A DNA stretch of 64,000 nucleotides from the human T2T-CHM13v2.0 reference genome, Homo sapiens: the NCBI RefSeq assembly GCF_009914755.1, contig NC_060943.1; one strand, written 5' to 3'. Position 1 is the stretch's first letter; each line of letters begins with the position of its first letter. This document shows positions 16,593-22,400 of the stretch, piece after piece. Below the pieces are notes generated by a model that did not search any database, had not been told where the DNA came from, and saw nothing but the letters and a program-made list of their open reading frames with translations. A program made the translations under genes and the position numbers.

Positions 16593-17067
16593 GTGAGTCC
16601 AGGGCTCAGTCTGCATTGCGCGGAAAATGAAGGTGAAGGTGGAGGTGGGACCTGATGGTCTCGTCCCGGATAGGGTTGAAGAAGTGGGAGAAAAGGAATC
16701 AAAATCGTGGATGGGATAAGATTGTGCGCGAATGCTCTCTGGGAGCGGATCGTGGCCGACGAGGGCCCGAAGATGCTGCCTTGTGATCGCAGGTGTGAGT
16801 GGAAGCTGTGTGAGTGTCAATGTGAGTTGCCTGTTTGGGAGACCAGCATTGTATTTTTGTATCAGGTAGTAACCTTGGAGCCAGGTATTTGTAAAATTAT
16901 GATAAGAGGGCATCATTCTGGAGCATCGATTTTATTTGGAGGTTGACAGGAGAGGGAAAAAAACCCCTAATATCTGATAAACAACATAAATAGATTTTTA
17001 TGTTAAAGTAGTTATATTTATTACGGTCTAGAATGCAAATCCAACATGGCTTTTAAAGCAAGAAAGA

Positions 17068-19433
17068 TTTTTTTTATACAAAGTCAAAGGTATTATTTTT
17101 ATACACTTACTACAAAACATACAAATAGTATACCAAGCCTAAGAATATAAAGAGTCTAGCTTTAATTAATTGAATGTAAATTTAAAAACAAGCATCTAAT
17201 AAGTAGTCCTTTTCACACATCGAAAAGCCAATTTCGGAATTTTTTTAAAAACTCAAATTACAAAGTAACAAATATCTGGTGTCTTAGTAACTTGAAGATC
17301 AGTACTAATGATTAAGCCAGCTTATATGCTAATATGATACATGAAAAAGCCTGTATTTCACAAATAGCAAACCACTAAAACTTTAATTTTCCACAGAAGC
17401 CATTGTTTCACACCAATAATTATGTTAAAGATCAAGACAGGCTAAAAGTTTTTAATGAGCACTGAATCCATTAAAACTTGGCAAATTTTTCCACGAAGGT
17501 AGAATTTTAATTTCTGTTTAAACCATGGGTAGATGGTACACCCTTGTGAGGGTGTACTGTAAGTACTTCTAAGGAGCTTTATCAGACTTCATCCCAAATT
17601 ATGTACCTAGTAAAAGATGTACCAATGTCTACTTTGGAATAAGAAATTATTCCTTGTTTGAGCAAGGATTAAGCAGAAACTGAAAGAAGTGTAGTTTATA
17701 GCTTCTTACATAAAGTAGATGGGCACCCCTCAAAAACAAACCAATATCCTGGCTCCTTAAATATCAACATTAATCTAAATAATGTATAGCATGCTCCTGT
17801 CCAATCTTTCCCGCTCATTTGTAGTCTTCTCAGATCGATGCTTCATTTTAGTCACACATTTCTATCCTGCAAGACTGGGTACCTGGGCTTTTTGTCTGGT
17901 TTTGTAACACTAGGCAGTTTTGGCCTTACTCAAAATATAAGACTGCAAAAGGCCTGTTTTACCTCAACCATACGGCTTCAGGAAATGGTCTGTATTTCCA
18001 ACAGAAAAGTGGTATCTAACTCTCAGGATGGTTTCTAACAACTGGATAGATACCTGGGTCTTTGCGGCCTGTGATGCAGCCTAACAATACAGGACCTTGT
18101 GTGATCAGCTAGGTCTGCTAAAGCAAGGGGACATCCATGTTCTAGATTTTTATTTATTTATTTTTTTTTGAGACGGAGTCTTGCTCTGTCGCCCAGGCTG
18201 GAGTGCAGTGGCGTGATCTCGGCTCACTGCAAGCTCCGCCTCCCGGGTTCAAGCCATTCTCCTGCCTCAGCCTCCTGAGTAGCTGGGACTACAGGCGCCC
18301 GCCACCACGCCCGGCTAATTTTTTGTATTTTTCGTAGAGACGGGGTTTCACCGTATTAGCCAAGATGGTCTCGATCTCCTGACTTCGTGATCCGCCCGCC
18401 TTGGCCTCCCAAAGTGCTGGGATTACAGGCGTGAGCCACCTCGCCCGGCCCATGTTCTAGATTTTTTATTCTGGTTTAGCAGGATCCAAACTGCCTGTCC
18501 TGAAGAGACTCTCTTTCTCTTCCATACAACGGCTGGCCTCTACCAAGTTAACTGCTTCGTGGGGGGAAAATATTGCCTTTCCTTTGGTCTGCATGTTTTA
18601 AGGGAAATACCAAATACACCTACAGGAGTTTATCAATAATAGACAAGGCTGATTTCAAACTCTTTCAGGAGATAAACTGGAGGGGAAGACGAATGGCAGG
18701 AGGGTGAAGAGGAAACTGAATTACTGTGCAAACACCCGCCACTCAAATCCGGGTGGTTACTGCAGAGTGAATAACGATAGGTACTATTTCGTGTAAGGCA
18801 AAGTCCTTTGAAAGGGCTCCTAGAGCGTCAAGGCCTCCACCTGATGAATGAATGAGTCAGGCAGGCCCAGCTCCACTTCACGGATGGGAAAACTGAGGTA
18901 CGAGGCCTCGCTGAAAGATGCGAGGCAGAGCGGAGAACCAGAAGCACCACTTCTCTCAGGCTGATGCTCTAATCTCGGCTCCCCCCGCCCCTACAATGGC
19001 GTAGACGGCCTCCGCCGCCCGACTCACACACACCCTCCCCCGGGAACGGCAAGTCTCCTCGGGTTCCAAGGACAGGGTCAAAAGACAGGGTCAAAAGACA
19101 AGAGGCCCGAGGCGCTCCCGCCGTGATTTGCAGCCAGATACCGTTGGGAGCGCAGCCAGAGAGCGTTGGGAGCGTGTGTACCTCCAGCCCAACATGGCGG
19201 CGGCAGCGGCCGCCCCCGACCCCAAGCCCTCCCTCAGGGCCCGAGGCTTCTCCTCAGGGCCTTCCGGTGGGCGGGAAGACAGCGCAACCCCGCCAGGCCT
19301 TTCTCGTCGCTGCGCCTGCTCGCTGAAGGAGTCACCTACCCGACGAGACTAACGGCTGCGGCGCGGAAGCCCCACAGCCCGCCGAGAACCAGGAATACGA
19401 GAGCCAGGCGGCGCGGCGGCGGGACCTGTACTG
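17068..19433 (-). pseudogene. Retrocopy of an unspliced TAF15 5' transcript (exon 1 plus about 2 kb of intron 1), start codon destroyed
   Basis: Minus strand 19432-19340 reads AGTACAGGTCCCGCCGCCGCGCCGCCTGGCTCTCGTATTCCTGGTTCTCGGCGGGCTGTGGGGCTTCCGCGCCGCAGCCGTTAGTC-TCG TCG G|gtaggtgac. This matches the recalled TAF15 5'UTR/exon 1 (…GTTAGTC ATG TCG G). An A8 tail lies at 17068-17075 and AGCAAGAAAGA is repeated at 17057-17067 and 19434-19444. Confidence 0.78.
18152..18450 (-). mobile_element. AluY inserted into the TAF15 retrocopy
   Basis: Full-length, CpG-rich, Y-type Alu (gcaagctccgcc, gatggtctcgatctc). TSD CATGTTCTAGATTTTT at 18136-18151 and 18451-18466. Confidence 0.92.
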
Positions 19434-22400
19434 AGCAAGAAAGAAGATTTCAAAGTAATTTATTGTTATGAGATCCGTGCTTTTATCTTGTCTCAGACTC
19501 CCAATGATAGGCACATACTCTCCTCTGTACATTTAATGAAACTACTAAAATATTTCGATTTAAATCTTCCACCTATTTGTTTTCTGTGTATCCTACCTGT
19601 TCCCGACCTTGACATTTTCAAAGAATACAGGTTACTTATTTTGTTTTTTGGTGGTGGTGAGTTTTTTGGGGGTTTTGTTTTTTGGTTTTTGGTTTTATTT
19701 TTGGAGACAGGGCTTTGCTGTATCGCCCAGGCTGGAATACAGTGGCGCGATGATAGCTCACTGCAGCCTCGAACTCCTGGGCTCAAGGGACCCTCCTGCT
19801 TCAGCCTCCCGAGTAGCTGGGACTACAGGCCTGCGCCACCACGCCCGGGTAATTTTTTATTTTTTGTAGAGATGGGGTGTTCTATGTTGCCCAGTGTGGT
19901 CTCAAACTCTTGGGCTCAAGAGATCCTCCCACTTCTGCTGCCCAAAGTGCTAGGATTACAGGCATGAGCCACCGCGCCGGGACAGTTATTTTGTAGAGTG
20001 TTCTTTAATTTGGATGTACCTCATCTTTTATGTATCTTTGGGAGGAATACCACATAACTCATGTGGTTTATCCCATCGAGAGACACACAGTGTCAATGTG
20101 TTCCATTCTTGGTGATGTTAACTTTTATTACTTAGTGAAAATAATTCTAAGAGATTTCACCACTGTAGAGTGAATAAATGAATATGTGGGATTCATCAAT
20201 GAATAAGTAAAAGGATGCCAACTGGCAAAAGAACTGAGTTGGGAGGATGGCTTGAGCCTGGGAGGTCGAGGCTGCAGTGAGCCGTGATGGCACCACTGCC
20301 CTCCAGCCTGGGTGACAAAGCAAGACCCCGTCTCAGAAAAAATTAAATAAATAAATAAATACCCAGCACCTGAACATCTCGGGCATTTCCTGTGCCTCTT
20401 ATATTGGGTCCCTGGTTTCTTGGAGCGTATGTCTTTTTTTTTTTTTTCTTGGTTTAGCTTCTCATTTTTGTAAAAAACACGTTCTTATTTTGTTTACCAT
20501 TTTGACAAAGGCGAATTTGGGTTAAAACTTTGGGACCCTTATAAGCTTGACAGTGTCTGTATTCTACCTCTTTTGGATGACACCTTAACTAGGTTTGAAA
20601 TTTTAGGTTGAATGTGGTTTTCACTTAGAATTTTGAATTATATAACATTGTCTGCTAGCTTACAGTGTTTATCTTAAAATATGACAATTTGATTTGTGTT
20701 CTGTTACTGTTCTTTGTCTTTCAAAGCATTTAAAGGCCAGGCTCAGTGATTCATGCCTGTAATCCCAGAGTTTTGGGAGTACGAGGCAGGAGGATTGCCT
20801 GAGCTCAGGAGTTCAAAACCAGCCTGGATGACATAAGGAGACCCTGTTTTCATAAAAGTAAAAATAGGCCGGGTGTGGTGGCTCACACCTGTAATCCCAG
20901 CACTTTGGGAGGTCGAGGTGGGCAGATCACCTGAAGTCAAGAGTTTGAGACCAGCCTGGCCAACATGGTGAAACGCTGTCTCTACTAAAAACACAAAATA
21001 TTAGTTGGGTGAGGTGGCATGCACCTGTAGTCCCAGGTACTCAGGAGGCTGAGGCAGGAGAATTGCTTGAACCCAAGAGGGCATGGTTGCAGTTGAGCCA
21101 AGATCGCGACACTGGACTCCAGCCTGGGCAACGGAGTGAGACCCTGTCTCAATAATAATAATAATAATAATTTTAAAAAACATTTAAAATTGTCTCTTCG
21201 TACTAGTTTTCTGAAATTTCACAGAAATGTGTTTTGGTGTGGTTCTTGTTTCTTTCGTTGTACAAGGTACTCAGTGGATCTTTGTATTAATATTTTGAAG
21301 ACTCATGATCTGTGTTTCTAGAAATCGCCTTTTGTTTGTTCTGTGAAGTTTTCTTCCATTCATTTTTCTTCTCTCTTTCTGAAATTCTAAACATCCTTTT
21401 AGTTGGATGTTATAATTTCTGATTTCTTCTGGTAGTTTTGTCATCTTTCATCCCTTTTATTTTTATTTATTTTTATTTTTTGAGATGGAGTCTCGTTCTG
21501 TCGCCAGACTGGAGTACTGCGGCGCGATCTCGGCTCACTGCAACCTCCGACTCCCTGGTTCAAGCAATTCTCCTGCCTTAGCCTCCTGAGTAGCTGGGAT
21601 TACAGACACCTGCCACCACACCTGGCTAATTTTTGTATTTTTAATAGAGACGGAGTTTCACCATGTTGGCCAGGATCGTCTCGATCTCTTGACCTCGTAA
21701 TCCGCCCACCTCAGCCTCCCAAAGTGCTGGGATTACAGGCGTGAGCCACCAAGCCGAACCACGCATTGTCTATTTTCTCATTATTTATAGCATTGTTTTG
21801 CAGCATACTTGTTGGAGTCAAACATTTGTTACTATCCAATTATTATTATTGTTATTTGAGATGGCCTTTTGCTCTATCGCCCAGGCTGGAGTGCAGTGCT
21901 GCACTCCTAGCTCACTGCAGCCTCAACCTCCTGGGCTCAGGTGATCCTCCCACCTCAGCCTCTCAAGTAGCTAGGACCACAGGTATGTGCCACCACACCC
22001 AGCTAATTTTTTTATTTTTTATAGAGACGGGGTTTGACCGTCTCCAGGCTGGTGTCGAACTCCTAGGCTCAAGCAATCTGACTGCATCAGCCTCCCAAAG
22101 TGCTGGGATTACAGGTGTGAGCCACTGTGCCCAGCCCAACTATCATCATCTTTATTTTTATTATTATTATTTTTTGAGACAGAGTCTCACTCTGTCACCC
22201 AGGCTGGAGTGCGATGGTATAATCTCAGCTCACTGCAACCTCCGCCCCCGCCCGGTTCAAGCGATTCTCCTGACTCAGCCTCCCAAGTAGCTGGGGTTAC
22301 AGGTGCTTGCCACCGCGCCCAGCTAATTTTTGTATTTTTAGTAGAGATGGGGTTTCACAATCTTGGCCAGGCTGGTGTTGAACTCCTGACCTTGTGATCT

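What the first reader, a model, noticed from the sequence alone, without database searches (positions are those of the whole stretch)
17057..19444. Retroposed copy of an unspliced, intron-terminated TAF15 transcript
Seen: the element begins at a TSS-like 5'UTR, keeps an intact 5' splice site (G|GTAGGT at 19339), and runs about 1.95 kb further (excluding the Alu) with no exon-2 coding sequence. It ends in A8, about 22 nt after a TATAAA variant signal (17103-17098), and is bounded by the direct repeat AGCAAGAAAGA. Recalled: the 5' 93 nt match TAF15 exon 1, with ATG changed to TCG. Ordinary processed pseudogenes lack introns. Inference: a germline fossil of premature intronic cleavage/polyadenylation (failed U1 telescripting) or of L1 priming on an A-rich tract in pre-mRNA. 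With only 7 nt of coding homology it would be invisible to protein-based pseudogene annotation. The internal AluY sets a minimum age.
Basis: partly seen in the sequence, partly recalled or inferred. Interest (0 to 1): 0.85.

Follow-up and report, generated by a model that had tools for sequence, protein, structure and literature searches.

The report
Unspliced TAF15 retrocopy upstream of ZNF850
About 1 kb upstream of ZNF850 lies an old reverse-transcribed copy of the start of the TAF15 gene, made of its first exon plus the first 2 kb of its first intron and never spliced, which is a real but explainable kind of pseudogene that standard pseudogene searches would miss.

Summary
Window 19435→17063 (minus strand) is colinear with chr17:36757392-36759451. 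That is TAF15 from 3 nt before its RefSeq start (36757395), through the 93-nt exon 1 and an intact 5' splice site, into about 1.96 kb of contiguous intron 1. It is the only other copy in the genome. Homology stops at both edges of an exact 11-bp direct repeat. An Alu with its own 17-bp target duplication, absent from the parent, interrupts it.

It is therefore an RNA-mediated, L1-type copy of an unspliced 5' TAF15 transcript, about 27-38 My old by divergence (7.2%).

One correction: the terminal A8 does not show polyadenylation. The parent reads A5TAA at that point. An intronic poly(A) site is still the better reading. The endpoint is the only one of 29 A-runs with both a TATAAA upstream and a U/GU-rich stretch downstream. 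Internal priming is not excluded.

Two additions. The copied half of the CpG island is still CpG-rich. The lncRNA LOC728485 uses an antisense acceptor inside the copy.

This is a new member of a known kind and of moderate interest.

The parts
17057..17067 (.). Target-site duplication, the copy on the 3' side of the element (AGCAAGAAAGA on the + strand; TCTTTCTTGCT in the element's sense)
   Evidence: Exact 11-mer found only twice in the window. It abuts the A-run where homology to chr17 ends.
17068..17075 (-). A8 run at the 3' end of the retrocopy. The parent has A5TAA at this place, so 5-8 of the 8 A are templated.
17098..17103 (-). TATAAA, a variant poly(A)-signal hexamer, 22 nt upstream of the A-run. 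It is also present in the parent.
17068..18134 (-). Distal part of the copied TAF15 intron 1 (parent about chr17:36758380-36759445), AT-rich, 93.1% identical
18135..18151 (.). Target-site duplication of the later Alu insertion (3' copy, 17 nt)
18152..18449 (-). Alu element with an A-rich tail, inserted into the retrocopy after retroposition and absent from the parent
   Evidence: Parental coordinates overlap by 21 nt across the gap. Sequence. Best pairwise identities to other copies are 92-96%.
18450..18466 (.). Target-site duplication of the Alu (5' copy, 17 nt)
18450..19339 (-). Proximal part of the copied TAF15 intron 1, beginning with the intact 5' splice site GTAGGT (GT at 19339-19338)
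19340..19435 (-). Copy of TAF15 exon 1 (5'UTR plus 7 coding nt, with ATG changed to TCG). The first 2 nt overlap the target-site duplication.
   Evidence: RefSeq gene start.
19434..19444 (.). Target-site duplication, the copy on the 5' side of the element
18736..19435 (.). CpG-island-like 700 bp carried in from the transcribed half of the TAF15 promoter island (GC 0.63, 56 CpG, observed/expected 0.81)
18669..20374 (+). Exon 2 of lncRNA LOC728485. Its acceptor (CTTTCAG|GAG) and first 767 nt lie inside the retrocopy, antisense to TAF15.
   Evidence: RefSeq rows. Acceptor sequence and the same motif in the parent's antisense strand.

Best explanation
This is an L1-type (target-primed reverse transcription) retrocopy of a capped, unspliced TAF15 transcript. 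The transcript started at the normal TAF15 start site, ran through exon 1 and its unused 5' splice site, and ended about 2.05 kb downstream inside intron 1. Most likely it ended at a weak intronic poly(A) site: TATAAA, then 23 nt to a TA/A5 cleavage region, then a U/GU-rich downstream element. That would make the template a '5' intronic-polyadenylation' non-coding isoform.

The cDNA was inserted about 27-38 My ago, 973 bp upstream of the ZNF850 start site and in the same orientation as ZNF850, creating an 11-bp (possibly 14-15-bp) target-site duplication. An Alu landed in it later.

Shown: colinearity with the parent, start at the TSS, no splicing, the direct repeats, and the later Alu. Inferred: that L1 made it, that the 3' end was a cleavage/polyadenylation site, and the date.

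Today the element is not a gene copy, since its ATG is lost and only 7 coding nt were ever present. It does contribute a CpG-rich block, and it supplies the acceptor plus 767 nt of exon 2 of the divergent lncRNA LOC728485 on the opposite strand.

The confidence of 0.55 is for the whole statement, including the intronic poly(A) site. RNA-mediated origin alone I put at about 0.9.
For: Colinear match to chr17:36757392-36759451 and to nowhere else in the genome.

The start is within 1-3 nt of the RefSeq TAF15 start at 36757395.

There is no homology in 3.39 kb upstream or 4.5 kb downstream of the copied segment, apart from Alus.

The exact 11-bp direct repeat sits at both homology edges.

The sense-strand 3' end is an A-run.

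The 5' flank reads TTTG|AAATCT..., so the duplication may begin with AAA after TT(G), which resembles an L1 endonuclease site (the consensus is recalled, not tested).

Poly(A)-site context in the parent: TATAAA lies in the -40..-10 window and the downstream 40 nt are 50% U and 65% G+U. Only 1.3% of 6,445 scanned positions have any of 13 signal hexamers plus U of at least 45%. Of 29 A-runs of 5 or more in the first 6.6 kb, only the endpoint run has both.

Stable 5' intronic-polyadenylation non-coding isoforms are a described transcript class (PMC5928244, passages read).

Divergence: 145 mismatches in 2,018 aligned sites (JC 0.0755). At non-CpG sites, 114 in 1,852 (JC 0.064).
Against: No A in the A8 needs to be untemplated. 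The parent reads GTGTAAAAATAATGC, so A8 can be A5 plus three A of a longer target duplication, or A5TAA with one substitution. So there is no positive trace of a poly(A) tail.

TATAAA is a weak variant signal. The hexamer list and the U threshold were chosen by me after I had seen the endpoint, so the 1-of-29 figure is post hoc.

No 3'-end sequencing data, no transcript table for chr17 and no primate outgroup were available.

No paper I could search reports an intron-1 poly(A) site in TAF15. One search found 16 papers holding both terms; in the two I opened, the TAF15 mentions concern the protein.

The date uses a recalled substitution rate of 1.0-1.2e-9 per site per year.
Confidence: 0.55

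Rival explanations
1. Same RNA-mediated origin, but the 3' end was not a cleavage/polyadenylation site. The T-rich primer at the nicked target annealed to the internal A5UAA tract of a longer, unspliced nuclear TAF15 pre-mRNA, and reverse transcription started there (internal priming).
For: The parent carries A5TAA exactly at the endpoint, and the copy's A8 needs no untemplated A. The tail is very short compared with the A-rich tail the younger Alu inside it still has.
Against: If the primer's TTT paired with templated A's, the product would carry 5 A, not 8. Three extra A, or a later T-to-A change, are needed (inference). Of 29 A-runs of 5 or more in the first 6.6 kb, four lie nearer the start site. 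The run used is the only one with a signal hexamer plus a U/GU-rich downstream stretch, which priming would not require. From memory, not checked here: L1 retrotransposition needs a 3' poly(A) tract (Doucet et al. 2015).
Confidence: 0.3
2. An L1-independent templated insertion: a TAF15 RNA or cDNA fragment captured during repair of a chromosomal break upstream of ZNF850.
For: No demonstrable poly(A) tail. There is 2-nt microhomology (CT) at the 5' junction.
Against: An exact 11-bp target-site duplication brackets the insert. From memory, that is the hallmark of staggered L1 endonuclease cuts and is not expected from end-joining capture. The insert is full length from the start site and ends in an A-run. 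The site preceding a possible longer duplication is TT(G)|AAA.
Confidence: 0.06
3. A DNA-level (segmental) duplication of the TAF15 promoter region from chr17 to chr19.
For: It is 2 kb of unspliced genomic-looking sequence at 87-93% identity, which would pass a duplication filter.
Against: Homology begins within 3 nt of the transcription start and includes none of the 3.39 kb upstream that I examined. It ends at an A-run, and both ends abut an 11-bp direct repeat. A DNA duplication has no reason to respect a transcript boundary.
Confidence: 0.03

Closest known systems
Semiprocessed (partially processed) retrocopies, e.g. rodent preproinsulin I (described in PMC3449122; 'partially processed retrogenes' in PMC5470649; passages read)
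   Same: A reverse-transcribed copy of a Pol II transcript that still carries parental intron sequence, has flanking direct repeats and sits at a new genomic location.
   Different: Those copies have lost some introns and reach the normal 3' end of the gene. This one shows no splice junction at all, holds only exon 1, and stops inside intron 1. It never contained a usable coding region (7 coding nt).
Type-2 snoRNA retroposons (Weber 2006, PMC1687206; passages read)
   Same: [quoted passage not shown]
   Different: Those start at the mature 5' end of an intronic snoRNA. This one starts at the capped transcription start of the host gene, runs across an unused 5' splice site, and contains no Rfam family (0 matches).
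5' intronic-polyadenylation (IpA) and prematurely terminated non-coding isoforms (PMC5928244, PMC7471841; passages read)
   Same: The inferred template has the architecture described for these RNAs: exon 1 plus 'exonized' first-intron sequence, ending at an intronic signal a few kb from the start site.
   Different: That is a class of transcripts, not of genomic elements. Use of this TAF15 site is not documented in anything I could read. The papers' supplementary site tables were closed and not seen.
Retrocopies that carry CpG islands, e.g. PPP1R26P1 in RB1 intron 2 and the chr22 PPP1R26 copies (PMC3839921; passages read)
   Same: A retrocopy brings CpG-rich parental sequence to a new place, and it remains a CpG island. 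The chr22 copies also hold about 250 bp of parental intron 1, and an Alu has inserted in PPP1R26P1.
   Different: There the island derives from exons and has been shown to be a differentially methylated promoter. Here methylation and promoter activity are untested, and the island is the transcribed half of a promoter island.
Ordinary processed pseudogene
   Same: Starts at the transcript's 5' end, lacks the upstream promoter, ends in A's and is flanked by target-site duplications.
   Different: Intron loss, the defining feature, is absent.

Membership tests
L1-mediated retrocopy (target-primed reverse transcription product) | Flanking target-site duplication of about 7-20 bp at the exact ends of the insert | tested here: met
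   An exact 11-mer at 17057-17067 and 19434-19444, the only two copies in the window, abutting the homology edges.
L1-mediated retrocopy (target-primed reverse transcription product) | Boundaries coincide with a transcript: starts at the TSS, with no upstream promoter copied | tested here: met
   Homology starts at chr17:36757392 and the RefSeq start is 36757395. No match in the 3.39 kb upstream.
L1-mediated retrocopy (target-primed reverse transcription product) | Untemplated 3' poly(A) tail | tested here: inconclusive
   A8 in the copy against A5TAA in the parent. Between 0 and 3 A's are not accounted for by the template, depending on where the duplication starts.
L1-mediated retrocopy (target-primed reverse transcription product) | Insertion at an L1 endonuclease-type site (TT|AAAA and close variants; consensus recalled) | tested here: inconclusive
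   The 5' flank reads TTTG|AAATCT(TCT)TTCTTGCT and the 3' side AAAATCTTTCTTGCT. This is a TT(G)|AAA site only if the duplication is read as 14-15 bp with a 3-nt slippage. No empty site was available.
Processed pseudogene | Parental introns removed | tested here: not met
   The copy is colinear with 2,060 bp of contiguous parental DNA across an intact G|GTAGGT.
Semiprocessed retrocopy | Some introns spliced out and at least one retained, with the normal 3' end of the mRNA | tested here: not met
   There is no exon-exon junction and no downstream exon. The copy ends 1.96 kb into intron 1. Only the 'retains intron sequence' part is met.
Retrocopy of an intronic-polyadenylation (IpA/PCPA) transcript | Poly(A)-signal hexamer 10-40 nt upstream of the 3' end in the parent | tested here: met
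   TATAAA (a variant signal) is present in parent and copy, 22-23 nt upstream. By chance, 21% of 6,445 positions have one of the 13 hexamers.
Retrocopy of an intronic-polyadenylation (IpA/PCPA) transcript | U/GU-rich downstream element in the parent | tested here: met
   The downstream 40 nt are 50% U and 65% G+U. Hexamer plus U of at least 45% occurs at 1.3% of positions and at 1 of 29 A-runs (thresholds are post hoc).
Retrocopy of an intronic-polyadenylation (IpA/PCPA) transcript | Observed cleavage/polyadenylation at that site in RNA data | not testable with these tools
   No reads, poly(A)-site databases or chr17 transcript table were available. Supplements of the IpA atlas papers were closed.
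Segmental (DNA-level) duplication | Homology independent of transcript boundaries, with no target-site duplication | tested here: not met
CpG island (usual sequence criteria, recalled: length of at least 500 bp, GC of at least 0.55, observed/expected of at least 0.65) | Sequence criteria met over 18736-19435 | tested here: met
   700 bp, GC 0.63, 56 CpG, o/e 0.81. Germline methylation state not testable here.

The most novel reading that the evidence does not exclude
The element may be a visible member of an unannotated class: L1 copies of short, capped transcripts terminated in the first intron. Genome-wide, such copies would form a dated germline fossil record of premature cleavage/polyadenylation sites, including a TAF15 intron-1 site already in use about 30 My ago.

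At this locus it may be more than a fossil. The transcribed half of the TAF15 CpG island has kept its CpG content at an ectopic site without the parental upstream promoter, which implies that it keeps itself unmethylated. It also gives the ZNF850-divergent lncRNA LOC728485 a 767-nt exon segment antisense to the 5' end of TAF15 pre-mRNA, with perfect runs of up to 70 nt. That segment could act on TAF15, an ALS-linked FET gene, in trans.
Probability: 0.12. Interest if true: 0.65.

Novelty: new member of a known kind. Interest (0 to 1): 0.4.

Why it matters
First, the element shows concretely that retrocopy and pseudogene catalogues have a blind spot. They are built on intron loss or protein homology, as described in PMC5470649 and PMC4772013 (passages read). 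This copy has no intron loss and only 7 coding nt. In my searches no paper tied LOC728485 or ZNF850 to TAF15.

Second, if the 3' end is a true intronic poly(A) site, copies like this one record which premature-termination sites were used in the germline or early embryo of ancestral primates. That is otherwise unobservable.

Third, the locus is a natural long-term experiment. Half a promoter CpG island was moved without its upstream half and has kept its CpG density for tens of millions of years.

Fourth, it explains the origin of most of the unique part of exon 2 of an 'uncharacterized' lncRNA that turns up in expression-signature papers. It also flags sequence complementarity to TAF15 that could confound probe- or read-based quantification of either transcript.

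None of this overturns current understanding. The mechanism is standard L1 trans-mobilisation acting on an unusual template.

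Tried and rejected
DNA-level duplication. Rejected because homology respects the transcript start and the direct repeats.

A paralogous 'empty site' elsewhere in the genome. The flanks 16700-17062 and 19436-19672 matched nothing but themselves and Alus, so no empty site could be examined. No primate genomes are reachable with these tools.

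Structured RNA in the copied intron (snoRNA, miRNA). There were 0 Rfam matches at gathering score in 16000-20500.

Alu subfamily and age. I made one look only (best 40 of 937 candidates, 92-96% identity).

CpG retention, island part versus the rest. Fisher's test on TG/CA versus kept (7/43 against 6/9) gives p = 0.059, which is only suggestive. The binomial figure of 1.3e-4 depends on an expected loss of 0.35 that I derived from recalled rates. With 0.25 it is 0.017.

Literature. One search ('retrocop' plus 'intronic polyadenylation') found 0 papers. Searches (34 papers, 12 listed; 9 papers), and one search gave no description of a retrocopy of an exon-1-plus-intron-terminated transcript. One search listed no paper in its top 15 that holds TAF15 or ZNF850 together with retrocopy terms. 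Searches (TAF15 plus intronic polyadenylation, 16 papers; TAF15 plus telescripting, 11 papers) gave nothing on an intron-1 site. In the two papers I opened, the TAF15 mentions concern the protein. These searches cover open-access text only.

I did not locate TAF15 exon 2, so 'intron 1' rests on the RefSeq gene span, the ATG and the splice-site consensus.

Full report
**1. What is in the sequence**

Read on the minus strand, the region starts with the direct repeat TCTTTCTTGCT and then runs into CAGTACAG.... It is G+C-rich for about 700 nt. An Alu interrupts it. It continues as AT-rich sequence and ends ...TATAAAAATAATACCTTTGACTTTGTAT-A8, followed by TCTTTCTTGCT again. On the + strand the 11-mer AGCAAGAAAGA occurs only at 17057-17067 and 19434-19444 in the whole window (0.15 expected, and 2 of 100 shuffles gave 2 or more).

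**2. Where it comes from**

I searched the window's own genome with three pieces of the region.
- 19200-19500: 2 matches.
- 16700-18160: 2 matches.
- 18470-19800: 40 scored of 2,750 candidates, where all matches except two are to the flanking Alu.

Each search found only the window itself and one place on chr17. A direct BLAST against chr17:36754000-36763999 (L013) gave two colinear pieces:
- window 19435→18450 = chr17:36757392-36758379, 87.3% over 1,023 columns;
- window 18154→17063 = chr17:36758359-36759451, 93.1% over 1,094 columns.

All other matches in that 10 kb are Alu-to-Alu. RefSeq places TAF15 at chr17:36757395-36795152 on the + strand. So the copy begins 1-3 nt before the annotated start. 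The uncertainty arises because the CT shared with the direct repeat cannot be assigned to one side. None of the 3.39 kb upstream of the start is copied.

The global alignment shows:
- the parental AGTCATGTCGG|GTAGGTGAC against AGTCTCGTCGG|GTAGGTGAC in the copy, so ATG has become TCG and the 5' splice site is intact;
- unbroken colinearity with contiguous parental DNA for 2,060 bp.

No chr17 transcript table was at hand, so the exon/intron boundary is inferred from the start coordinate, the ATG and the splice-site consensus.

**3. The Alu**

The two parental intervals overlap by 21 nt. This is because the Alu (18152-18449, with an A-rich tail) is flanked by an exact 17-nt duplication (18135-18151 and 18450-18466) of sequence that occurs once in the parent. 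The Alu therefore entered after retroposition.

Both duplicates carry AAAAATCT where the parent has AAAAAGTCT. So that difference predates the Alu, unless it arose in the parent instead.

One look at its relatives gave best pairwise identities of 92-96% (40 scored of 937 candidates). It is younger than its host, but I did not assign a subfamily and built no consensus.

**4. Mechanism: what is shown**

The insert has these properties:
- it starts at a transcription start;
- it lacks the promoter;
- it ends in an A-run in the sense orientation;
- it is bracketed by an exact 11-bp duplication;
- it lies on another chromosome.

This is the signature of target-primed reverse transcription of an RNA. 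A DNA duplication has no reason to respect these boundaries. Because the copy crosses an intact, unused 5' splice site and follows intron 1 for 1.96 kb, the template was unspliced. I put RNA-mediated origin at about 0.9.

**5. Mechanism: the 3' end**

The parent reads ...TTTGTGTAAAAATAATGCTTTTGAC..., and the copy reads ...TTTGTATAAAAAAAATCTTTCTTGCT. The A8 can be explained in two ways that need no poly(A) tail:
- A5TAA with one substitution;
- A5 plus the first three A of a longer duplication. The 5' flank reads TTTG-AAATCT(TCT)TTCTTGCT and the 3' side AAAATCTTTCTTGCT. This reading would also put the nick at a TT(G)|AAA site, which is L1-endonuclease-like. That consensus is recalled, not tested.

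So no untemplated A is demonstrable.

The parental context nevertheless looks like a weak poly(A) site. TATAAA lies 23 nt upstream of the TA/A5, and the next 40 nt are 50% U and 65% G+U. In a scan of 6,445 positions downstream of the start:
- 21% had one of 13 signal hexamers in the -40..-10 window;
- only 1.3% had a hexamer plus U of at least 45% downstream;
- of 29 A-runs of 5 or more in the first 6.6 kb, the endpoint run (the fifth from the start) is the only one with both.

I chose the thresholds after seeing the site, so this is suggestive and not a formal test.

Internal priming has its own problem. Annealing of a TTT primer to templated A's predicts 5 A, not 8.

My weighting is: intronic cleavage/polyadenylation 0.55, internal priming on a longer pre-mRNA 0.3, other mechanisms under 0.1. 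'Failed U1 telescripting' as the cause is not testable here. Stable 5' IpA non-coding isoforms are a described class (PMC5928244 and PMC7471841, passages read). In those two papers TAF15 appears only as a protein.

**6. Age**

There are 145 mismatches in 2,018 aligned sites (7.2%, JC 0.0755). Outside CpG contexts there are 114 in 1,852 (6.2%, JC 0.064). With a recalled rate of 1.0-1.2e-9 per site per year on both lineages, this gives about 27-38 My. That is around the stem of the catarrhines. It cannot be checked without outgroups.

**7. What it is now**

The element sits 973 bp upstream of the ZNF850 start (exon 1 ends at 16090) and in the same orientation as ZNF850. It lies inside the first intron and second exon of LOC728485, a lncRNA that starts at 16436 divergently from ZNF850.

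LOC728485 exon 2 (18669-20374, + strand) begins at an acceptor, TTTCAAACTCTTTCAG|GAG, that lies inside the copy on its antisense strand. The same motif exists in the parent's antisense strand, so it was brought in ready-made.

Hence 767 nt of that exon are antisense to TAF15 exon 1 and proximal intron 1. Within that exon segment the longest perfect identity runs are 70 and 45 nt.

The first 700 nt of the copy still meet CpG-island criteria: GC 0.63, 56 CpG and o/e 0.81, against 59 CpG and o/e 0.82 in the parent.
- Of 59 parental CpGs in the island part, 43 are kept in the copy, 7 are TG/CA, 6 are otherwise changed and 3 fall in gaps.
- In the AT-rich remainder, 9 of 16 are kept and 6 are TG/CA.
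- Fisher's test gives p = 0.059.

This hints that the copied island has been protected from methylation-driven decay. It is not proven.

**8. Comparison with what is known**

- Semiprocessed retrocopies (PMC3449122; PMC5470649 citing Soares 1985, Baertsch 2008 and Zhang 2014; passages read) share retention of intron sequence. They are partly spliced and reach the normal 3' end. This element fails that membership test, and it also fails the intron-loss criterion of processed pseudogenes.
[quoted passage not shown] They start at a snoRNA 5' end, not at a cap site.
- Retrocopy-borne CpG islands are known: PPP1R26P1 and the chr22 copies, which hold about 250 bp of intron 1 (PMC3839921). CpG islands as retrocopy promoters are also described (PMC4772013).
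- Retrocopies have been used before to infer parental transcript structure (PMC7692494).

Every ingredient is therefore in print. The specific combination is a cap-to-intronic-end, wholly unspliced 5' transcript of a protein-coding gene. I did not find it described, nor this TAF15 copy, in searches. Those covered open-access full text only, and no supplements were seen. The 6 papers that mention LOC728485 were seen only as a search listing.

**9. Verdict**

This is a new member of a known kind: an L1-made retrocopy of a polyadenylated or A-rich Pol II transcript. It illustrates an annotation blind spot well, and it comes with two testable side observations, the retained CpG island and the exonized antisense segment in a lncRNA. 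Interest 0.4.

Noticed in passing
window 18736-19435: The copied, transcribed half of the TAF15 promoter CpG island is still CpG-rich after about 30 My (56 CpG, o/e 0.81, against 59 and 0.82 in the parent). Only 7 of 59 parental CpGs are TG/CA in the copy, against 6 of 16 in the AT-rich remainder (Fisher p = 0.059). This suggests germline hypomethylation at the ectopic site.
   Followed up: partly
window 18669-19435 (+ strand): LOC728485 exon 2 starts at an acceptor (CTTTCAG|GAG) inside the retrocopy, on its antisense strand. The motif pre-exists in the parent's antisense strand. The lncRNA therefore carries 767 nt complementary to the TAF15 5' end, with perfect runs of 70 and 45 nt.
   Followed up: partly
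window 20325-20374 (+ strand): The 3' end of LOC728485 (20374) lies just after an (AAAT)n-type tail, ...AAAAAATTAAATAAATAAATAAATA..., at the end of a masked repeat (20232-20367). The lncRNA's poly(A) signal therefore appears to come from a repeat's A-rich tail.
   Followed up: no
window 19139-19160, 19088-19100 and about 18906: Indels relative to the parent in the CpG-rich part: a 21-nt and a 13-nt tandem duplication in the copy (or deletions in the parent) and a 22-nt gap in the copy. There are 56 gap columns in the first ~700 nt against 15 in the rest.
   Followed up: no
L013 (chr17:36759410-36759465): The parental endpoint lies in a local imperfect tandem repeat of about 25 nt (TAAAAATAATaCcTTTGACTTtGT / TAAAAATAATgCtTTTGACTTGT). 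The retrocopy ends at the A-run of the second unit.
   Followed up: no
window 15801-16800: A CpG-rich block (o/e 0.75-1.0) covers the divergent ZNF850 and LOC728485 start sites (16090 and 16436). It is separated from the retrocopy's CpG block by about 1.9 kb of CpG-poor copied intron (o/e 0-0.44), so the two blocks are distinct.
   Followed up: no
window 19686-19984: An older Alu lies just beyond the 5' target-site duplication, with 11 CpG in 299 bp against 20 in 292 bp for the Alu inside the copy. It is not part of the retrocopy.
   Followed up: no
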